Of a stretch of 48,479 nt of DNA, positions 9,737-47,743 are shown piece after piece; position 1 is the stretch's first letter; the number at the start of each line of letters is the position of its first letter. The position numbers were made by a program, and so were the translations under genes. This DNA comes from a bacterium. GTDB lineage: Bacteria; Patescibacteriota; Patescibacteriia; JACQSD01. Below the pieces are notes generated by a model that searched no databases, had not been told where the DNA came from, and saw only the letters and a list, made by a program, of their open reading frames with translations. The stretch is taken from NCBI GenBank assembly GCA_030648795.1, contig JAUSHC010000002.1, forward strand, positions 1-48,479, read 5' to 3'.

Positions 9737-10672
9737 ATGGCATGGGTAAGAGGTATTGTGACGGGTCGCATCAATGATGACGGGCGGATCATCGCGGAGA
9801 CACGTGCTCTTGAAGTAATGCAAGGATTAAAGCCCGGAACGCCGAAAGAGGCGCAGGATGCCGGAATGGACCTTGCAGCTGGTCGGCAGATCCAAGAGCG
9901 GAAACCCGGACCATTTTCGTTCATGGGGTATTTCGGCGGAGCTACTGCGATGGTTGTTCCGTTCGTTGCTTTGACGCTGTTGGACGAAAGGCGCATGCGG
10001 CGGTTGTACGAAAAGTATTTTGGTCCGCTCAAAGAAGGCGAGAAGCCATGTTTTCCGGAAGACGTTGCGATCATGCATGTGCGAAACACGGGCGCACCCG
10101 CACGTCAGAACGACGCGGAACCCTCGGGCGGTATGGCAGAGACCACGGATCTTCTGGTTGAACAGGTGGGAGAGATGGTCGAGATGGGGGTTTTAAGGTC
10201 TGATCATCAGTGGACTCGTTTTCTTCTGCCATCTGAAGTTGCCATGCATCAAGAGGCATTCAATCACAAGCAGTTCGAGGCATGGAATCTTTTTTCCCAG
10301 GCTCTATGGGTTCGAGGTGAATCGGCGCAACTCGAGTTATTGCGCGTGGGTCGCGACCAGTTCAACGGGCAGTCGGGTATTGTTACCGCTGGCCCTGTGG
10401 GTGATGTTGCCGTTACATACGTTGCCAAGGTGCACTTGAATGGCACGGGCTGGAAGTTTTTGGACCTCGAGACGCACAATGGCAATCCTATGCGTCGCAA
10501 GATGGTTGCTATCGTTCCGCGTCCGTATCGTTCACCACTTGTGCTTCAGTTGGACGAGAACGGGGGGTTGGACGACTTCGGTCATCACTTCGTGCTCTGT
10601 GGGGAGAACGTGGATCTCTGCGTGACCCACATCGGGAAGGCCGTACTGCAAGCACTCGGTTGGCTCCTATAG
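9737..10672 (+). CDS. Hypothetical protein with one predicted transmembrane helix
   Basis: Long ORF preceded by AAGGGG. I recognise no family motif. There is a single hydrophobic stretch, FMGYFGGATAMVVPFVALTLL. Confidence 0.6.
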   Translation: MAWVRGIVTGRINDDGRIIAETRALEVMQGLKPGTPKEAQDAGMDLAAGRQIQERKPGPFSFMGYFGGATAMVVPFVALTLLDERRMRRLYEKYFGPLKEGEKPCFPEDVAIMHVRNTGAPARQNDAEPSGGMAETTDLLVEQVGEMVEMGVLRSDHQWTRFLLPSEVAMHQEAFNHKQFEAWNLFSQALWVRGESAQLELLRVGRDQFNGQSGIVTAGPVGDVAVTYVAKVHLNGTGWKFLDLETHNGNPMRRKMVAIVPRPYRSPLVLQLDENGGLDDFGHHFVLCGENVDLCVTHIGKAVLQALGWLL

Positions 10673-10683
10673 AAGGGAATGTT

Positions 10684-11307
10684 ATGGACAAGCCCGAAAA
10701 GGTTCTTTTCGACATTGGCAACGTGATCCTGCGTGCAACGCATCAGATTACGTTTGCGATTCTGTGGGAGCTGGGAGTTCGACCGGACAAGGTTGCGCTC
10801 TTCTTCCATCAGAAGGCTTACGGAGAATTTGCTCTCGGGAGAATTACCGGTGAGCAATTCGCACAAGCGACCCGTGAAGTGCTTGAGGCACCGTGGCTTA
10901 CGGATAAGCAAATCCGTGCCGCACATGACGCGCATATCTACATGGTGGACGATGCGGTCATGGAGGTCATTCGTGAGCTCGATCATAAAAAACGGCTTCT
11001 CGGCTTCGTCACCACAACGAACGAGTGGCAGACGGAACGCGAACATCAGTTTCTGGATCTTGGTTCGGTGGTTCGTTCACACGAGATCGGTATGACGAAG
11101 ACGAGCGTTAACGCATGGATCATGATCTTGCAGCAATTCAAGATGTCGATGGATCAAGCTCCATCAATTCTTCTCGTAGACGACGCATCCGCGAATAACG
11201 CGTTTGCGGAAACCGTAGGACTTGCCACGTATCAGTATGATCCCAGACCAATCATCGGGGTCGAGAAGTTGATCGCGGAATTACGCGAGCGCCAGCTTCT
11301 TGTATAG
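10684..11307 (+). CDS. HAD-IA hydrolase, YihX-like sugar-phosphate phosphatase
   Basis: VLFDIGNVIL (DxG variant of motif I, as in E. coli YihX), GRITGEQF and LLVDDASANN motifs. Confidence 0.7.
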   Translation: MDKPEKVLFDIGNVILRATHQITFAILWELGVRPDKVALFFHQKAYGEFALGRITGEQFAQATREVLEAPWLTDKQIRAAHDAHIYMVDDAVMEVIRELDHKKRLLGFVTTTNEWQTEREHQFLDLGSVVRSHEIGMTKTSVNAWIMILQQFKMSMDQAPSILLVDDASANNAFAETVGLATYQYDPRPIIGVEKLIAELRERQLLV

Positions 11308-17531: not shown

Positions 17532-18739
17532 TTCTCGTTACCATCTGCTATCCTCCGGAAATTCGATCCATCTCGAATATGGTGCGGGAGTTTGCTGAAG
17601 AATTGGTACAGCGAGGACATGCAGTAACCGTACTTACTGGATGGCCGCAGTATAATTTGAGTGAAGAAGATCGGCAGCGTGTTTTTATCACAGACAGCGT
17701 TGAGAACGGGGTGCGTGTCCTTCGTATAAAAACATTACCGACGCACAAAGTGCCGTATATCATTCGTGGCATTGGTCAAGTGTTTTTGCCTTTTCTTTTT
17801 TTGCGTGCATTTAAAAAATATGTGCGCGATTCCGTTGATGCGGTTGTTGTCTACAGCCCGCATCTGCCACTTACAAAAGTCGGCACGGCGATCAAAAAGC
17901 AGTATGGAGCTCGATATATTTTAAATATTCAAGATATTTTTCCGCAAAATGCAATTGATCTCGGCGTGTTGAAGAACAAAATGTTGATTCGCTATTTTGA
18001 AGATATGGAACGACGCGCGTATGCGGCGGCAGATGTCGTGACGACGTGCACAGAGAATGCCCGTCAATTTTTAACGACACGCAAAGGGTTGTCGGAGGCA
18101 AAAGTGATGTGCGTGCCGAACTGGATTGATATACGTCAGTATGCGCGTGCGGGAGCAAGAGGTGTGTACAGGAAAAAATATAATCTTGGCAATCGATTCG
18201 TTCTATTATTTCCGGGGATTTTTGGTCCATCGCAAGGATTGGATTTTGTCATTGAAGTGGCGCGTCGTGTCGCAGATTTGACGGACATTTGTTTTTTATT
18301 TGTTGGCGATGGTACGGAAAAAGAAAAAATACAAGCATTGACGAAAAAGTATCATTGTGCGAATGTGCAGTTTGAACTATTTGTGTCACTCCATGAGTTT
18401 CCAAGGCTTTTGCAAGACGCAGATGTTGGGTTGCTCGCCTTAAAACACGATAGCGGAACACCGACGGTGCCGGGAAAATTTTTTGGATTTTTGGCGGCAC
18501 GGCTTCCGGTGCTTGGATTTTTGAATAAAGAAAGCGAGGGACACCGATTAATTCAAGAGTCGGGATGTGGGTATTCATGTCTATCCGACGATGTTGGACA
18601 AGCCGAAGCGCTTGTGCGCACAATGTATGGTAAGAGAGGTCAACTGTCCGATTTTGGGGAAAAGGGGTTTGCGTATGTGCAGAAACATTTTTCCAAGAAG
18701 GGCTGTATTGATAAACTAGAAAAATTATTACACTCATGA
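17522..18739 (+). CDS. Glycosyltransferase family 4, WcaI-like
   Basis: MRIVLVTICYPPE...RGHAVTVLTGWPQYN N-terminus typical of WcaI-like GT4 enzymes. Confidence 0.85.
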   Translation: MRIVLVTICYPPEIRSISNMVREFAEELVQRGHAVTVLTGWPQYNLSEEDRQRVFITDSVENGVRVLRIKTLPTHKVPYIIRGIGQVFLPFLFLRAFKKYVRDSVDAVVVYSPHLPLTKVGTAIKKQYGARYILNIQDIFPQNAIDLGVLKNKMLIRYFEDMERRAYAAADVVTTCTENARQFLTTRKGLSEAKVMCVPNWIDIRQYARAGARGVYRKKYNLGNRFVLLFPGIFGPSQGLDFVIEVARRVADLTDICFLFVGDGTEKEKIQALTKKYHCANVQFELFVSLHEFPRLLQDADVGLLALKHDSGTPTVPGKFFGFLAARLPVLGFLNKESEGHRLIQESGCGYSCLSDDVGQAEALVRTMYGKRGQLSDFGEKGFAYVQKHFSKKGCIDKLEKLLHS

Positions 18740-21140: not shown

Positions 21141-23098
21141 AAAAAACGCTCAATAATTTTTTACGTCCAACGCACAAAAAAAAATTCATTTTTTTTGTTG
21201 TGGGAGACGCTGTTATTGTCTCTTTCTCTTTGTATTTTTCCTTTCTTCTTCGATTTGATTTTTCGTTGCGTTCTCCGTATGCGGATATTGTCGTGAATGT
21301 ATTACCGCTTTTTCTTGTCGTGAAAATTGCAAGTTTTGCGTTTTTTCATTTGTATCAGTTGAGCTGGCGATTTGTCAGTTTGCGTGATTTTTATAACGCA
21401 CTACGCGCCGTTATCGTTTCGAGTGGGGTAATGATGGCAGCGATTTATTTTTTGCGCATTCCGGCTTTCGAGGGATTTCCGCGCGGCATTATAATTGTCG
21501 ATGCGATTGTGACGCTGTTATTGATTTCATTCTTGCGCGTGTCGAAGCGGGTGATCATTGAAGTGGTGATGGGACAACGAAGACGGGGAGGGAAGAGAAT
21601 GTTGATCATCGGCGCGGGAAATACGGGGGAGATGATACTGCGTGACATGCAAAAAAGTAAGTTTGGTAATTATACGGTTGTGGGTTTTTTGGATGATGAT
21701 CCGAATTGTGTCGGTGCGTATGTGCATGGCGTGAAAGTGTTGGGCGATATTGATTCGTTGTCGGCGCATGTTACCGCGCAGCAGGTTGTGGCGGTGATTA
21801 TCGCAATTCAAACGCTTGGACATGCGCGGTTGCGGGTGATTTATGGTGCGGCAAAAAATGCAGGCGTCAAAGAAGTGAAGATTGTTCCGTCACTGTATGA
21901 TGTGCAACGCCCGGAGATACGCGCACAGGAATTGAAAGACATTAAAATTGAAGATTTGATCGGTCGACAGGCGGTTTCCATTGACTATAAAGAGATCGGG
22001 CGAGCCATTGAAGATAAAACCGTGCTCGTGACGGGTGCGGGAGGTTCCATCGGTTTTGAATTGGTGGATCAAATTTGTAGTTTTCATCCGCGGAAGATAG
22101 TGCTTTTCGAGATAGATGAAACCGAATTATATCGTGCGGAAGTTGTATTAAAACGCAACCATCCGGAATGTGTCGGCAAGATTCATTTGTTAGTCGGTGA
22201 TGTGCGGGATCGCGATCGCCTTGAAAAAGTATTTGCCGCCCATCGTCCCGATATGGTGTTTCATGCAGCGGCATACAAGCATGTGCCGATGATGGAGTAC
22301 AATGCCGGTGAAGCGGTGAAGGTGAACGTGCTTGGTACTTTGAATGTGGCACGCGCGGCACTCGCATGGGGCGCGGATCGGTTCATTATGATTTCGACGG
22401 ATAAAGCAGTACGTCCGACGAGCATCATGGGCGCAACAAAACGCATTGCAGAGAATATTTGCAGGGCGCTCAATACGCATGGAAAGACCGAATACATTTC
22501 GGTTCGTTTTGGGAATGTTTTGGGAAGCCGCGGAAGCGTTTTGCCGCTTTTTTTGGAACAGATTGAGCGAGGTGAGTCTTTGACCGTGACGCATGAAGAC
22601 ATGTTGCGTTATTTCATGACAATCCCGGAGGCGGTCTCATTGGTGTTGCAGGCGAGCGTGATCGGGAGGGGGGGGGACGTTATGGTGTTGGACATGGGAG
22701 AGCCCGTACGCATCGTTGAGCTCGCTGAAGAATTACTGCGTTTGCATGGGTTGGAGCCGTATAAAGATTTGGATATTGAATTTATCGGTCTTCGTCCGGG
22801 AGAAAAGTTGTTTGAGGAGATTCTTACAGCGGAAGAGGGGACGATCGCGACACGCCATGAAAAGATTTTTGTCGCGCGTATGCAGGGCGTAGATTCCATT
22901 GCGGTGATGGAAGATATGGTGCGCCGTTTTGAGCAGCATGTGCAGCTCGGCGATGACGATGGTAAAGATATCAAGCGTCTTTTGCAGGAATATGTTAAAT
23001 GGCATGATGGTGGGAAAGAAAGTGGGTATAACAATCGTGATGCATCCCCGATTCTTATCCCATCGCTTGTGAATAAAACGGATGATTCCGTCCGCTAG
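21137..23098 (+). CDS. CapD/WbpM/PglF-like membrane-anchored UDP-HexNAc 4,6-dehydratase
   Basis: Four N-terminal TM helices, two Rossmann motifs (LIIGAGNTG, VLVTGAGGSIGFEL) and AAAYKHVP. Confidence 0.9.
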   Translation: MKKTLNNFLRPTHKKKFIFFVVGDAVIVSFSLYFSFLLRFDFSLRSPYADIVVNVLPLFLVVKIASFAFFHLYQLSWRFVSLRDFYNALRAVIVSSGVMMAAIYFLRIPAFEGFPRGIIIVDAIVTLLLISFLRVSKRVIIEVVMGQRRRGGKRMLIIGAGNTGEMILRDMQKSKFGNYTVVGFLDDDPNCVGAYVHGVKVLGDIDSLSAHVTAQQVVAVIIAIQTLGHARLRVIYGAAKNAGVKEVKIVPSLYDVQRPEIRAQELKDIKIEDLIGRQAVSIDYKEIGRAIEDKTVLVTGAGGSIGFELVDQICSFHPRKIVLFEIDETELYRAEVVLKRNHPECVGKIHLLVGDVRDRDRLEKVFAAHRPDMVFHAAAYKHVPMMEYNAGEAVKVNVLGTLNVARAALAWGADRFIMISTDKAVRPTSIMGATKRIAENICRALNTHGKTEYISVRFGNVLGSRGSVLPLFLEQIERGESLTVTHEDMLRYFMTIPEAVSLVLQASVIGRGGDVMVLDMGEPVRIVELAEELLRLHGLEPYKDLDIEFIGLRPGEKLFEEILTAEEGTIATRHEKIFVARMQGVDSIAVMEDMVRRFEQHVQLGDDDGKDIKRLLQEYVKWHDGGKESGYNNRDASPILIPSLVNKTDDSVR

Positions 23099-25543: not shown

Positions 25544-27034
25544 ATGCAAAAGATTGTTTTTCCTTTGAGCGTTATTGTTGGCGTTGTTTTTGGTACAACA
25601 CCGAGTGTTGTGCAATTATTCGGTGGCGAGATAACGTTTTTATTTTTTGTAGTTGCATTATGCGCGGGTGTGGCGCTTTCCTGGTGTTGGCAGAATACTC
25701 GACTTCGCATTGTTTTGTTAGTCGTTTTGTTCTTTGTCTTTGGGCTTTGGCGGGGGAGCGCTGTTACGCTTACGGATGAGGTCGTAAGCCCTAAACGTTT
25801 TTCGGGGACAGGCGTCGTTGTCACTGCGCCGTACATTCGAGGGAAAACGCAGGTGTTTGATGTGCGAGTAGATCGTACAACACCGAGTGTTGCTTCAACA
25901 CTCGGTGTTAACGATCGTATAACACTCGGTGTTATTGATCTCGGTGTTGTGACAGGGCAATATCCTCGCTACCGCTATGGGGATGCGCTTTCGATTGATT
26001 GTAAAAGCATAAAAGAGGGGAGCTGCTTTTTTCCGAGTATCCATACATTGGGTGAGGGGAGGGGAAGTTGGGTGTTGTCATTTCTTATCGTCGTGAAGAA
26101 TCATCTTGTCCAAGGGCTCGCGCGCGTACTTCCGGAACCGCATGCGAGTTTTGCGGCGGCGCTTCTTTTGGGCGAGCGTGCTGCATTGCCGAAAGAAATA
26201 AGCGACGCATTTCAAATAACCGGCACAACACACATTGTTGCAGTCTCCGGAACACACGTTGTTATTTTGGGAGAATTTTTGAAAGTCATTCTGGGGCTTG
26301 TTGCGATTCCGATTCGTTTTCGACGTGGCGCGGTTGCTGTTCTCCTTGTATTTTTTACGGCGATGATCGGAGCGCCGGCAAGCGCGGTGCGCGGGCTTAT
26401 TTTTGGACTTATCTTACTCCTTGCAGAGTCAACGGGTCGTCCACGCGCGATGTCCGTTGCGATTGCCACGACCGCCGCAGTACTTCTTCTTGTGCGACCG
26501 GTGTTTCTTTTTGATCTTGGCTTTCAGCTTTCATTTCTCGCAGTCATTGGCATCGTGTATGGTGTGCCCGTGATCAGTCGATTTGTGGATCCTCTTCTTC
26601 CTTTACACTACTTCTTTCGCTCCGCAATAGCTCTTGGTATTATATCGTTTGCCGCGACCGTCATGACAACCCCGCTTCTTGTCGCCACGTTCGGCCGTTT
26701 GTCGCTTATTGGTATTGCGGCGAATATCGTTGTTGCGCCATTGGTTGAACCGGCGACGATCGCAACGCTCGTCGTCGCTCTGCTTGCGGTTCTCCACCCG
26801 TTTATTGCTTTGCCGTTCGGAATTTTACTTTTTGGCATCCTTGGCGCCATGACGAGTGTGATTACTTTTTTTGCAAAGATTCCGGGGGCGGCGCTTGCGG
26901 TGACGCCGATGTCGCCGCTCGTACTCTTTGTTTTATACGCTATTCTTTTTACTGCGCTTTTTTGGCAGTGGCTAAAACTTTCACCATGGGAAAGGAACTT
27001 CTCACTCGAAAAAACATCGCGATCGGCGCAGTAG
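25544..27034 (+). CDS. comEC: ComEC/Rec2 DNA-uptake channel, membrane (DUF4131 + Competence) part
   Basis: Polytopic protein with the ITGTTHIVAVSGTHVVILG motif characteristic of the ComEC competence domain. Confidence 0.85.
   Translation: MQKIVFPLSVIVGVVFGTTPSVVQLFGGEITFLFFVVALCAGVALSWCWQNTRLRIVLLVVLFFVFGLWRGSAVTLTDEVVSPKRFSGTGVVVTAPYIRGKTQVFDVRVDRTTPSVASTLGVNDRITLGVIDLGVVTGQYPRYRYGDALSIDCKSIKEGSCFFPSIHTLGEGRGSWVLSFLIVVKNHLVQGLARVLPEPHASFAAALLLGERAALPKEISDAFQITGTTHIVAVSGTHVVILGEFLKVILGLVAIPIRFRRGAVAVLLVFFTAMIGAPASAVRGLIFGLILLLAESTGRPRAMSVAIATTAAVLLLVRPVFLFDLGFQLSFLAVIGIVYGVPVISRFVDPLLPLHYFFRSAIALGIISFAATVMTTPLLVATFGRLSLIGIAANIVVAPLVEPATIATLVVALLAVLHPFIALPFGILLFGILGAMTSVITFFAKIPGAALAVTPMSPLVLFVLYAILFTALFWQWLKLSPWERNFSLEKTSRSAQ
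25871..25950. repeat. Cluster of AACACCGAGTGTT / AACACTCGGTGTT palindromic repeats inside comEC
   Basis: Hairpin at 25871-25916 with a stem of about 20 bp. Further copies at 25921-25933 and 25597-25609. The arms are shared with the ndk terminator. Confidence 0.9.
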
Positions 27035-31288: not shown

Positions 31289-31309
31289 TTCTGATAGTTC
31301 GATTAAATA

Positions 31310-31343
31310 ACACCGAGTGATGAGGTCATCACTCGGTGTTTTA
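31310..31343. terminator. Bidirectional hairpin terminator between ndk (+) and the pilus operon (-)
   Basis: ACACCGAGTGATGA (31310-31323) pairs with TCATCACTCGGTGT (31326-31339). T-rich on both sides. Confidence 0.65.
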
Positions 31344-45806: not shown

Positions 45807-46472
45807 ATGTCTGTTGCCGCAATCATTCCTGCATACAATGAAGAAGGCACGATCGGAAAAGTGATCAGTGCGATTAAACGTTCGCAAGCGGTTGATACGA
45901 TTATTGTGATTTCTGACGGTTCAACGGATCGTACCGTTGCTATCGCGAAAGCGGCGGGAGCGGATGTATTTTCACGCACCAAGAATCGAGGAAAGGGTGA
46001 GGCGCTCAAATTTGCGACGACTAAAACGACTGCAGATATTTTATTTTTCTGCGACGCTGATCTTGTCGGATTGCAACCGCGGCATGTGCGCGCGATTGTT
46101 GATCCGGTGCGGAAAGGAACGGTCGCCATGTGCATGGGGCTTCGTGATCGGTGGGGGATCCCTGGCATCGTCGCGCGGCTTGACCCATTACTTGCCATCG
46201 GCGGCGAACGCGCACTCACACGAGAGGTGTTCCAACGTTTGACCCCCGAAGACTATCATGGATTCAGCGTTGAAATTTCATTGAATGAATACTGCAAGCG
46301 ATTCCATTTTCCTGTACAATTCGTGGAGATGGTTGGTGTGACGCATGTCCCGAAAGAGATTAAATGGGGAAGAGTGCGCGGGACACTTCGGCGCATTCCA
46401 TGGCTTTTTCAGATTCTTCGCGTGCGTATCCTTGCATTTTTTCCACGACAACAAACATGGCACAAGCATTAA
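45807..46472 (+). CDS. Glycosyltransferase family 2 embedded in the dcw cluster
   Basis: AAIIPAYNEEGTI, VISDGSTDRT and FCDADL motifs. Confidence 0.8.
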   Translation: MSVAAIIPAYNEEGTIGKVISAIKRSQAVDTIIVISDGSTDRTVAIAKAAGADVFSRTKNRGKGEALKFATTKTTADILFFCDADLVGLQPRHVRAIVDPVRKGTVAMCMGLRDRWGIPGIVARLDPLLAIGGERALTREVFQRLTPEDYHGFSVEISLNEYCKRFHFPVQFVEMVGVTHVPKEIKWGRVRGTLRRIPWLFQILRVRILAFFPRQQTWHKH

Positions 46473-47743
46473 TAAAAACTGCGCAGCGTATTTACTGCAT
46501 TGGCATAAAGGGCGTGGGCATGACCGCTCTTGCTGAAGTATTGCATGGGTGGGGGAAACGTGTGACGGGATCTGATACGGAGGAACGGTTCCAAACGGAT
46601 GAGGTTTTACGAAGAAGCGGAATTTTGTTTGTCGAGGGGTTTGCAAAAGAAAACGTTCCGGCAGATGTTGATCTCGTTATTTATTCCACGGCATACGGCG
46701 AAAAGAATCCGGAATATGCAGAGGCTCTGCGACGAGGGATTCCGATGCTTTCGTACCCAGAGGCGTTGGGGCAACTCATGGAAGGGAAGTACGGGGTCGC
46801 TGTTTCCGGTTCGCACGGTAAAACAACAACGACTGCGCTCCTTGGGCATGTCATGACCGAAGCGGGATTAGATCCTACAGTGATCGTCGGGTCAGAAGTA
46901 AAAAATTGGGGATCGAACGCGCGCGTGGGGAAATCGGAATACGTTGTGATTGAAGCGGATGAATATCAAAATAAGTTTCAACACTATAATCCGCGCGGTC
47001 TTATCATTACAAATATAGATTGGGATCATTCGGACTTTTTCAAAACATTGGAAGCGTATGAAAAAGCGTTTGCTGATTTTCGAGAGAAAGTTTTAGGCAA
47101 TAGCGGATGGGTAGTTGAGACTGGAAAGATAGATTATTCCCCGAGCGAAGTCGAGGGGCTTCCTTTGAGCCTTTCCGGCGAGCATAATAAAAAAAATACT
47201 GCACTGGTATATGCAGTAGCGCAGAAGCTTGGGATTGCCGATAACGTATTTTGGAAAGCGGTGCAATCATTTAAAGGCACAGCGCGACGATTTGAAGTAA
47301 AAGGGGAGACGGCTAACGGTGTGCTCGTTGTTGATGACTACGCGCATCATCCGACAGAAATTCAAGCGACGCTCAAAGCCGCACGTGCGCGCTATCCAAA
47401 ACAGAAACTGTGGGTGGTGTTTCACCCGCATACGTTCACCCGCACAAAAACATTCTTCGATGACTTCGCGCGTTCATTCAGTGATGCGGATCAGGTCATC
47501 ATTCTTGATATTTATGGTTCAGCGCGAGAGGAACACGGCGGTGTGCACTCCAAGGATCTTGTTGCAGCTATTAACAAGGGGCACCCTTGTAAAGGTACAA
47601 GGGTGCCCCTTGTAGATGCGATTTACATTCCCACTATCCCCGAAGCAGCAACGTATCTTCGTAATCACGCCGAGAAAGACGACATCGTCATCACTATGGG
47701 CGCGGGTGATGTGTGGAAAGTAGGGGAGGATTTTTTGCGATAA
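46457..47743 (+). CDS. murC: UDP-N-acetylmuramate--L-alanine ligase
   Basis: IGIKGVGMTALAEVL, GSHGKTTTTALL and DDYAHHPTE motifs. The start was trimmed to ATG 46457. Confidence 0.9.
   Translation: MAQALIKTAQRIYCIGIKGVGMTALAEVLHGWGKRVTGSDTEERFQTDEVLRRSGILFVEGFAKENVPADVDLVIYSTAYGEKNPEYAEALRRGIPMLSYPEALGQLMEGKYGVAVSGSHGKTTTTALLGHVMTEAGLDPTVIVGSEVKNWGSNARVGKSEYVVIEADEYQNKFQHYNPRGLIITNIDWDHSDFFKTLEAYEKAFADFREKVLGNSGWVVETGKIDYSPSEVEGLPLSLSGEHNKKNTALVYAVAQKLGIADNVFWKAVQSFKGTARRFEVKGETANGVLVVDDYAHHPTEIQATLKAARARYPKQKLWVVFHPHTFTRTKTFFDDFARSFSDADQVIILDIYGSAREEHGGVHSKDLVAAINKGHPCKGTRVPLVDAIYIPTIPEAATYLRNHAEKDDIVITMGAGDVWKVGEDFLR
47574..47613. repeat. Perfect 18-bp inverted repeat (4-nt loop) inside murC
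   Basis: ACAAGGGGCACCCTTGTA aagg TACAAGGGTGCCCCTTGT. Confidence 0.95.

What the first reader, a model, noticed from the sequence alone, without database searches (positions are those of the whole stretch)
47574..47613. Perfect 18-bp palindrome inserted in frame in murC
ACAAGGGGCACCCTTGTA-aagg-TACAAGGGTGCCCCTTGT lies inside the MurC C-terminal domain. It encodes roughly KGHPCKGTRVPLVD between LVAAIN and AIYIP. From memory of other MurC sequences, no such segment is present there. A perfect stem-loop of this length inside an essential gene resembles the in-frame palindromic elements described in Rickettsia (RPEs).
Basis: partly seen in the sequence, partly recalled or inferred. Interest (0 to 1): 0.6.

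Follow-up and report, generated by a model that had tools for sequence, protein, structure and literature searches.

The report
Mobile hairpin repeat translated inside murC
The 40-base perfect hairpin in murC is real: it is one copy of a small hairpin-pair DNA repeat (a REP doublet, of the kind tied to RAYT enzymes) that in this ultra-small candidate-phyla-radiation (CPR) bacterium sits mostly in frame inside housekeeping genes and is read through as a short floppy loop.

Summary
**Observation:** confirmed. Window 47574-47613 has two perfect 18-nt arms and a 4-nt loop. It lies in frame in murC and encodes NKGHPCKGTRVPLV.

**Identity:** it is not unique to murC.
- The 17-nt unit ACAAGGG-GCA-CCCTTGT occurs as inverted doublets at about 11 loci in this 1.1-Mb Patescibacteria genome and about 24 loci in a same-genus genome.
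- Across all reference genomes, it occurs only in other Patescibacteria.
- About 80% of copies lie in long open frames, including IleS, PepA, Pth, a FemAB-like protein and a methyltransferase. They are read in different frames, so this is a DNA-level element, not a protein motif.
- The two arms co-vary strongly.

**Link to RAYT:** in three other CPR assemblies, the identical hairpin brackets a RAYT-like Y1/HUH transposase gene. That makes the murC insert a REP doublet (REPIN). However, no RAYT gene is found in this genome's own assembly.

**Lineage:** only this genome and its congener carry the murC insert. Closer MurC relatives, and 30 others, lack it. The AlphaFold model places it in a low-confidence coil.

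**Turnover:** at orthologous sites the two congeners often hold different hairpin families.

**Verdict:** a new variant of a known kind (intragenic REPs, Rickettsia RPEs). Moderately interesting.

The parts
46454..47743 (+). murC (UDP-N-acetylmuramate--L-alanine ligase), the host gene. The open frame starts at 46364; homologs start at the ATG at 46454.
   Evidence: Pfam Mur_ligase, Mur_ligase_M and Mur_ligase_C. PDB MurC 9ir5, E = 1.8e-85. The database protein P0001 of 428 aa is identical, and all invariant columns of a 34-sequence alignment are kept.
47574..47613 (.). Family-A REP doublet (REPIN-like): two inverted 17-nt hairpin units plus a spacer. Seen whole, it is a perfect 18-bp-arm hairpin with a 4-nt loop.
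   Evidence: Family census. Arm covariation.
47574..47590 (+). Unit U: ACAAGGG-GCA-CCCTTGT (7-bp stem, 3-nt loop).
   Evidence: Unit-hairpin pairing is 93.8% across 30 distinct doublets.
47597..47613 (+). Unit U' : ACAAGGG-TGC-CCCTTGT, the reverse complement of U.
47591..47596 (+). Spacer AAAGGT between the units. It is copy-specific; the congener has AAAGGG at the same murC site.
47573..47614 (+). Codons N404-V417 (NKGHPCKGTRVPLV), the translated insert. These are residues 373-386 of the 428-aa protein.
   Evidence: for the translation; coil between helix 365-374 and strand 387-390, with pLDDT below 50 at 378-382. Absent from relatives.

Best explanation
The murC palindrome is one copy of a small non-autonomous mobile repeat, a REP doublet (REPIN-type element). 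It consists of two inverted copies of a 17-nt hairpin unit, ACAAGGG-GCA-CCCTTGT, 2-7 nt apart.

Such doublets are handled as single-stranded DNA hairpins by a RAYT-like Y1/HUH tyrosine nuclease/transposase, whose gene is bracketed by the same hairpin. The unit has no stop codon in any of the six frames. CPR genomes have almost no intergenic space. Copies therefore land in genes, and only those that keep the frame in a tolerant loop survive.

In murC, the copy entered a variable helix-to-strand connection of the C-terminal domain in the common ancestor of this genome and its congener (or was written into that site in both). It is now translated as a roughly 12-residue disordered loop without disabling the enzyme.

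**Shown here:**
- The repeat family and its restriction to Patescibacteria.
- In-frame residence in real genes, in several reading frames.
- Covariation between the arms.
- RAYT genes flanked by the identical hairpin in other genomes.
- The lineage-specific loop position in MurC.

**Inferred:**
- That a RAYT actually moves or maintains these copies.
- That one acts, or recently acted, in this genome, where none is assembled.
For: **Dispersed family.** The 17-mer at up to 3 mismatches gives 20 forward and 21 reverse matches in the own genome, against 1 and 1 for the control. These resolve into about 11 doublets plus solo units. There are about 24 doublets in the same-genus genome G001, a variant in same-family G002, and none in 35 of 38 other same-class genomes.

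**Restricted to CPR.** An exact doublet pattern scanned over 185,579 species gave 33 stretches, all in Patescibacteria metagenome-assembled genomes (MAGs) with 41-60% G+C.

**A DNA element, not a protein motif.** The same DNA is read as TRGTLV/TRVPLV, YKGHPC/YKGAPC or LQGAPL/LQGCPL in different hosts.

**Hosts are real genes with Pfam domains on both sides of the insert.** These include Pth, Peptidase_M17, IleS (between the catalytic and anticodon domains), Methyltransf_11 and FemAB. Of 32 doublets in G000 and G001, 25 have at least 40 open codons on both sides.

**Arm covariation.** Across 30 distinct doublets, 96.7% of cells pair. Nine of 17 pairs change on both sides (58 cells), and 0 of 500 shuffles reach this.

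**Variant sub-families recur at several loci with both arms changed alike.** Examples are the TCA loop, G5A+C13T and the GCATCC variant. This pattern indicates that the doublet replicates as a unit.

**Cognate enzyme.**
- RAYT-like ORFs L150 and L160 score above the Pfam Y1_Tnp cut-off. They carry NHFH and YIHQNP motifs and are 72% identical to each other.
- Each has an exact family-A doublet upstream and another directly after the stop codon. L150 also has a single unit in frame (TRGTLA).
- L181 again has the exact hairpin at -33 and +46, and L149 has a loop variant.
- At least 45 of the 80 best metagenomic relatives of this RAYT repeat one short hairpin upstream, in frame or downstream, and the hairpin sequence changes from locus to locus.
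- All 10 other genomes that bear family A have Y1_Tnp genes.

**murC itself.** Only the own genome and G001 carry the insert. The model shows coil with pLDDT below 50 at the insert.
Against: - **No RAYT gene in this genome's assembly.** Pfam Y1_Tnp finds nothing. tblastn with G001 and A-clade RAYTs finds nothing. The assembly is 94% complete in 92 contigs. Only 1 of 184 contig ends carries a unit, so gaps at repeats are not an obvious excuse.
- **No exact match in G001 either.** None of its assembled RAYTs is flanked by the exact family-A hairpin. The nearest homolog (47% identity) is flanked by ACAAAGAGACTCTTTGT, and a truncated RAYT on C109 has TCAAGGG-TTC-CCCTTGA.
- **No classical REP tag.** There is no conserved GTAG or CGTC tetranucleotide.
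- **No clean empty site or target-site duplication** could be recovered.
- **Unexplained conservation.** The murC copy is 39/40 identical between two genomes whose murC is only 74.8% identical. Simple selfish insertion followed by neutral decay does not explain this.
Confidence: 0.8

Rival explanations
1. The hairpin is a host-maintained cis element, not a currently mobile one. It could be a binding site for a conserved CPR protein, or an mRNA/DNA structure with a role of its own. It is kept by purifying selection and has no need of a RAYT in this genome.
For: The murC copy, including its spacer, is 39/40 identical between genomes whose murC is 74.8% identical. The probability of at most one difference is about 1e-4 if the element evolved neutrally (my calculation). 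The identical 15-nt core occurs in distant CPR classes with 41-60% G+C. No RAYT is found in the own assembly.
Against: - Copy number is low and differs two-fold between congeners.
- Most sites are not shared. At shared sites the content differs in family or form.
- Host genes are unrelated, and the element is read in all frames.
- The same hairpin brackets RAYT genes.
- There is no Rfam family match.
Confidence: 0.1
2. It is a minimal MITE: two terminal inverted repeats of a DDE-type (for example TA-duplicating) transposon with the interior deleted, moved in trans by that transposase.
For: The element is essentially two inverted repeats. A T before and an A after the core are frequent (TACAAGG...CCTTGTA).
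Against: - The flanking T and A co-vary like stem positions (A..T, G..C, T..A) and do not behave as a fixed duplication (pair 1-38).
- Each arm is itself a hairpin, as in REPs.
- No clean filled-versus-empty site shows a duplication.
- The only genes found bracketed by the hairpin are Y1/HUH genes.
Confidence: 0.05
3. The insert is an adaptive protein feature of MurC, a selected surface loop. The palindromic DNA is incidental.
For: The peptide is conserved between the two congeners.
Against: The same DNA appears in at least 10 unrelated genes and between genes, in three frames and both forms. Closer MurC relatives lack it. The model gives it no defined structure.
Confidence: 0.03
4. It is an assembly artefact created by the assembler at a palindrome.
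For: Contig C37 of this assembly is a 42,936-nt perfect fold-back centred on a family-A element. This shows that the assembler mishandles these palindromes.
Against: The murC copy lies mid-contig and keeps the frame. It is present at the same site in an independent assembly from another study. The family occurs in more than 10 MAGs from different projects.
Confidence: 0.02

Closest known systems
REP doublets (REPINs) with RAYT transposases of Pseudomonas and Enterobacteria (Bertels & Rainey 2011, PMC3116915; Nunvar 2010; structure paper PMC3479197)
   Same: - Short hairpin units arranged as inverted doublets whose arms co-vary.
- Tens of copies per genome.
- A Y1/HUH gene bracketed by the same hairpin.
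- Several hairpin families per genome.
- Sites that persist while their content changes with the resident RAYT, as reported for P. chlororaphis in the REPORTH preprint (10.1101/2024.10.14.618302).
   Different: - About 80% of copies are inside protein-coding genes and are translated.
- There is no GTAG/CTAC tag.
- Units are very short (17 nt) with spacers of 2-7 nt.
- The host phylum is Patescibacteria.
- The RAYT gene often holds a copy in frame.
- No RAYT is assembled in this particular genome.
Intragenic GTAG/CGTC REPs and REP dimers (Di Nocera, De Gregorio & Rocco 2013, PMC3733652)
   Same: REP singles and dimers lie inside ORFs for known proteins and add up to 20-30 residues. The authors argue that the insertions are tolerated rather than functional.
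   Different: In that study intragenic copies are a minority of mostly extragenic families and carry a GTAG or CGTC tag. Here the majority are intragenic and untagged.
Rickettsia palindromic elements (RPEs; Ogata et al. 2000, 2002, cited from memory and via PMC3733652)
   Same: Palindromic repeats inserted in frame into genes for functional, often essential, proteins in a small reduced genome, at permissive positions.
   Different: RPE-1 is about 100-150 bp. No associated transposase is known for the CGTC-type RPE-4 and RPE-6. The lineage is unrelated. Sequence relatedness was not tested here.

Membership tests
REP/REPIN-RAYT system | A short palindromic unit repeated many times in the genome | tested here: met
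   About 11 doublets plus solo units in the own genome and about 24 in the congener. The control pattern gives 1.
REP/REPIN-RAYT system | Units arranged as inverted doublets whose two arms co-vary, so the doublet is the replicating unit | tested here: met
   96.7% of cells pair, 9 of 17 pairs change on both sides, and 0 of 500 shuffles reach this. Variant sub-families occur at several loci.
REP/REPIN-RAYT system | A RAYT (Y1/HUH) gene flanked by the same REP (REPtron), in any genome | tested here: met
   L150, L160 and L181 have the exact family-A hairpin on both sides of a Y1_Tnp gene, and L149 has a loop variant. The NHFH and YIHQNP motifs are visible.
REP/REPIN-RAYT system | A cognate RAYT present in the same genome as the REPs | tested here: not met
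   There is no Y1_Tnp hit in the own assembly and no tblastn hit. The assembly is 94% complete, so absence is not proven. The congener has 3-4 RAYTs, but none is flanked by the exact family-A hairpin.
REP/REPIN-RAYT system | A conserved GTAG (or CGTC) tetranucleotide at one end of the unit | tested here: not met
   GTAG follows only some units (those with AGCT spacers). The units that flank RAYT genes lack it.
REP/REPIN-RAYT system | Predominantly extragenic location | tested here: not met
   25 of 32 doublets lie inside long open frames. Pfam domains span the inserts.
Rickettsia palindromic elements (RPE) | In-frame insertion of a repeated palindrome in genes for functional proteins | tested here: met
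   MurC, IleS, PepA, Pth, a methyltransferase and FemAB. MurC keeps all invariant residues.
Rickettsia palindromic elements (RPE) | Sequence membership in RPE-1 to RPE-8 and a length of about 100-150 bp | not tested
   No RPE sequences were compared. The element is 36-41 nt and the host is a Patescibacterium, so membership is not claimed.
MITE (terminal inverted repeats plus target-site duplication) | A target-site duplication flanking the terminal inverted repeats | tested here: inconclusive
   No filled-versus-empty comparison gave a clean boundary, because the sites lie in indel-rich loops. The flanking T/A behaves as a stem pair.

The most novel reading that the evidence does not exclude
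Once a hairpin doublet is lodged in a gene, it becomes a heritable 'slot'. The position persists through speciation. The content is rewritten or replaced by whichever RAYT-hairpin family is active, or is kept intact by that activity.

This reading would explain three observations:
- At 18 sites where the congener has a family-A doublet, this genome has family A at 4, a different hairpin at 5 (three family-B doublets, plus other palindromes on C6 and C37), and short tandem repeats at 3. About 0.2 sites would be expected by chance.
- One shared site has the two units in swapped order.
- The murC copy is 39/40 identical against 75% identity in its flanks.

The same behaviour has been suggested for extragenic REPINs in Pseudomonas. 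It has not been reported inside reading frames.
Probability: 0.35. Interest if true: 0.7.

Novelty: new variant of a known kind. Interest (0 to 1): 0.5.

Why it matters
REP/REPIN elements are textbook extragenic repeats. Here a REPIN-type family lives mainly inside essential genes of a bacterium with a minimal genome.

- **Genome evolution:** in genomes with almost no intergenic DNA, such elements persist by being translatable. They are a steady source of short loop insertions in proteins.
- **Annotation and assembly:** they explain odd lineage-specific peptides in CPR proteins. They can also make assemblers fold contigs back on themselves, as with contig C37.
- **A testable question:** the persistence of sites with changing content offers a way to ask what RAYT enzymes actually do to their hairpins.

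I found no paper describing this for Patescibacteria. Earlier notes of this same scan report the same pattern in other CPR genomes, so it is not unique to this window.

Tried and rejected
- **Rfam at a permissive threshold:** only sub-threshold generic miRNA-hairpin matches.
- **RAYT in the own genome:** Pfam Y1_Tnp at E up to 1, and tblastn with six RAYT proteins, found nothing. I tested whether RAYTs could be lost at contig breaks. Only 1 of 184 contig ends carries a unit.
- **Exact insertion boundaries or target-site duplication:** 18 pairwise alignments of congener-filled sites against this genome gave no clean empty site.
- **Insert in closer MurC relatives:** I asked whether the 8-residue insert of P0003 and P0004 is a decayed remnant of the same element. 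The alignment is ambiguous.
- **GTAG tag:** not consistent.
- **Two-small-hairpins model:** only weak covariation, against strong covariation for the long hairpin.
- **Literature:** searches for CPR/Patescibacteria with palindromic in-frame repeats or RAYT/REPIN found nothing specific.
- **Rejected:** protein-motif, terminator and artefact readings (see rivals).

Full report
**1.
- Window 47574-47613 reads ACAAGGGGCACCCTTGTA-aagg-TACAAGGGTGCCCCTTGT. It has 18-nt arms, 100% complementary, 4 nt apart.
- The 18-mer has three matches in the window at up to 3 mismatches, all within this element, against 0.02 expected.
- The RNA fold is -40.7 kcal/mol, against -16.8 +/- 2.9 for shuffles (z = -8.3).
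- The element lies inside the frame 46364-47743 (+). That frame carries the Mur_ligase, Mur_ligase_M and Mur_ligase_C domains and matches solved MurC structures (9ir5, E = 1.8e-85).
- The gene sits in a murG, glycosyltransferase, murC, murB row. The encoded segment is NKGHPCKGTRVPLV.

**2. It is one member of a dispersed repeat family.**
- Each arm is itself a small hairpin, ACAAGGG-GCA-CCCTTGT. The whole element is therefore two inverted 17-nt units with a short spacer.
- In the window's own genome the unit gives 20 forward and 21 reverse matches, against 1 and 1 for the reversed control. That genome (G000) is 1.109 Mb in 92 contigs, 47% G+C and 94% complete.
- The matches resolve into about 11 doublets plus a few solo units.
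- A same-genus genome (G001) has about 24 doublets. A same-family genome has a variant (ACAATGGGCACCTTTGT). Of the 38 other same-class genomes, 35 have none.
- An exact doublet pattern scanned over one genome each of 185,579 species found 33 stretches. All are in Patescibacteria/CPR MAGs: Paceibacterota, Doudna-, Nomura-, Yanofsky- and Taylorbacteria. One of these is G001, which is deposited under a wrong 'Gammaproteobacteria' label. Their G+C content ranges from 41 to 60%.
- The closest named MurC relatives are Candidatus Uhrbacteria.

**3. The copies sit in genes and are translated.**
- Almost every copy lies in a long open frame.
- Pfam shows that the hosts are real genes with the domain running on both sides of the insert: peptidyl-tRNA hydrolase, M17 leucyl aminopeptidase, a class I methyltransferase and a FemAB-family protein. 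In isoleucyl-tRNA synthetase the insert lies between the catalytic and anticodon-binding domains. RmlD carries a solo unit.
- Of 32 doublets in G000 and G001, 25 have at least 40 open codons on both sides. This is roughly what random placement in a gene-dense genome would give (the density is my estimate, not measured here), so genes are not avoided.
- The same DNA is read as TRGTLV/TRVPLV, YKGHPC/YKGAPC or LQGAPL/LQGCPL, depending on frame. The conserved entity is therefore DNA, not a peptide.
- The unit has no stop codon in any of the six frames.
- Doublets are 36-41 nt long, not multiples of three. Survivors must have gained or lost a few flanking bases to stay in frame.

**4. Structure of the element.**
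- Across 30 distinct doublets from 12 genomes, the arm-to-arm helix is paired in 96.7% of cells.
- Nine of 17 pairs change on both sides (58 cells). No shuffle out of 500 reaches these values, and slid controls collapse to 38-59% pairing.
- The two-small-hairpins model is 93.8% paired but shows little covariation.
- Variants recur at several loci with both arms changed alike. Examples are a TCA loop, G5A with C13T, and GCATCC. This is the signature of a doublet that replicates as a unit, as described for REPINs (PMC3116915).
- Many G001 copies are perfect 36-38-bp palindromes with AGCT, CGCG, CATG or AT centres.

**5. The associated enzyme.**
- Pfam Y1_Tnp (PF01797) finds nothing in G000. It finds 3-4 genes in G001 and 2-9 genes in each of the ten other genomes that bear family A.
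- In two of those genomes, the RAYT-like ORFs are bracketed by the exact family-A hairpin (L150 from JBAZRE01 and L160 from JAKBZO01). They are 72% identical to each other and show NHFH and YIHQNP motifs. Each has a doublet 25-110 nt upstream and a doublet directly after the stop codon.
- L150 also has a single unit in frame inside the ORF, encoding TRGTLA.
- A Doudnabacteria RAYT (L149) has a loop variant of the hairpin.
- Of the 80 best metagenomic relatives of this RAYT, at least 45 repeat one short hairpin upstream, in frame or downstream. The hairpin differs from locus to locus.
  - L181 again has the exact family-A hairpin.
  - L194 has the ACAAAGGTGCCCTTTGT sub-family also seen in G001.
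  - L182 has the hairpin that flanks the G001:C22 RAYT.
- Each G001 RAYT is likewise bracketed by its own hairpin family.
- This is the REPtron layout, so the murC element is best called a REP doublet or REPIN.

**6. What does not fit.**
- The own assembly has no RAYT, by Pfam or by tblastn. Only 1 of 184 contig ends carries a unit, so loss of RAYT genes in assembly gaps is possible but not indicated.
- In G001 no assembled RAYT is flanked by the exact family-A hairpin.
- There is no GTAG or CGTC tag.
- No clean empty site or target-site duplication was found.

**7. History of the murC copy.**
- G001 has the element at the same site: 39 of 40 nt identical, with spacer AAAGGG against AAAGGT.
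- The two murC genes are only 74.8% identical at the nucleotide level.
- If the element evolved like its flanks, at most one difference in 40 would have a probability of about 1e-4 (my calculation).
- Three closer MurC relatives (P0003, P0004 and P0005, at 83, 78 and 80% amino-acid identity) lack it, as do 29 further homologs. So do 23 same-class genomes.
- P0003 and P0004 have an unrelated 8-residue insert at the same spot with only a weak stem. Whether that is a remnant is ambiguous.
- Either the insert is ancestral and was lost or replaced several times, or the site was filled more than once.

**8. Sites persist while content turns over.** I aligned 18 sites where G001 has a family-A element with their counterparts in G000.

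| State of the G000 site | Sites | Details |
|---|---|---|
| Family A | 4 | murC; IleS, with a compensatory A..T to G..C change of the outermost pair; C91:4848, with the two units in swapped order; C91:33327, decayed |
| A different palindrome | 5 | Family B (ACAACAC-CGA-GTGTTGT, the same 7+3+7 architecture) in a probable pyruvate kinase gene on C78, at window 31307-31342 and on C46; another hairpin on C6; another on C37 |
| Short tandem repeats | 3 | (TTGTAAG)n, (ACGTGTA)n and TTGACT repeats |
| No evident repeat | 6 | |

- Inverted repeats with arms of at least 13 nt number about 112 in this genome. They cover about 1% of it, so about 0.2 such coincidences are expected.
- The REPORTH preprint reports the same behaviour for extragenic Pseudomonas REPINs. 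It suggests that RAYTs modify or replace REPINs in place (10.1101/2024.10.14.618302).

**9. Effect on MurC.**
- The AlphaFold2 model, built from a 34-sequence alignment, is confident overall (mean pLDDT 91.4, pTM 0.91).
- The insert is residues 373-386 of the 428-residue protein. It is coil between helix 365-374 and strand 387-390, and pLDDT falls below 50 at 378-382.
- All columns that are invariant in the alignment are kept.
- The enzyme is therefore probably functional with a floppy extra loop. Solvent exposure was not computed.

**10. Comparison with what is known, and verdict.**
- In-frame palindromic repeats are known from Rickettsia (RPEs).
- Intragenic REP singles and dimers have been catalogued in several bacteria, where they are a minority of mostly extragenic families (PMC3733652).
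- New here: a RAYT-linked, untagged, very short doublet family whose copies are mostly intragenic, in Patescibacteria. I found no paper describing this.
- Earlier notes of this scan report the same pattern in this and other CPR genomes. I treated them as leads and re-derived the family, the RAYT link and the site turnover independently.
The precise label is a REP doublet (REPIN-like), a new variant of a known kind.

Noticed in passing
G000 contig C37 (1-42936), centre at 21451-21486: The whole contig is a perfect 42,936-nt palindrome (arm 21,468 nt) centred on a family-A doublet. This is almost certainly an assembler fold-back artefact triggered by the palindrome. Half of the contig is a mirror image and inflates the assembly.
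   Followed up: partly
window 25879-25909 and 31307-31342: Two family-B doublets (AACACCGAGTGTTG / CAACACTCGGTGTT; full unit ACAACAC-CGA-GTGTTGT). Family B has about 30 copies in the genome, many in frame in large secreted proteins as TPSV...TLGV. The copy at 31307 lies just after a stop codon, at a site where the congener has a family-A doublet.
   Followed up: partly
window 42581-42615: A doublet of a third hairpin family: GAGGTCGGACCTC...GAGGTCCGACCTC (unit GAGGTC-G-GACCTC). About 6 further copies occur in the genome.
   Followed up: no
G000 C3:1904, C43:4407, C6:25453, C74:9831, C78:29484, C81:1727, C89:11891, C38:16160: A fourth doublet family, CCGGCGGAGCCGG-GT-CCGGCTTCGCCGG (unit CCGGC-GGA-GCCGG), is repeated at 8-9 loci. 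Its coding status was not checked.
   Followed up: no
G000 C78:~10180-10230, C18:~17600-17640, C64:~10990-11040: Short tandem repeats, (TTGTAAG)n, (ACGTGTA)n and TTGACT-type, sit exactly where the congener has a family-A doublet. They may be decay or replacement products of hairpin elements.
   Followed up: no
G000 C76:11752-11803 and C54:4062-4110; G001 loci L074, L086: A separate repeat of about 50 nt, 92-96% identical between the two genomes, turned up next to some family-A loci in the flank BLAST.
   Followed up: no
G001 = CAYHPG01 (loci L095-L123): This same-genus MAG is deposited as 'uncultured Gammaproteobacteria bacterium'. Its gene content and relatives show it to be a Patescibacterium, so the label is wrong.
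   Followed up: partly
L150:1463-1477 (JBAZRE01); L142:108-126 (G001:C109); L149:~1440-1480: RAYT-like genes carry a copy of their own flanking hairpin in frame, in the loop after the first conserved block (for example LGK-TRGTLA-SSIR). Many metagenomic relatives do the same (positions marked 'in').
   Followed up: partly
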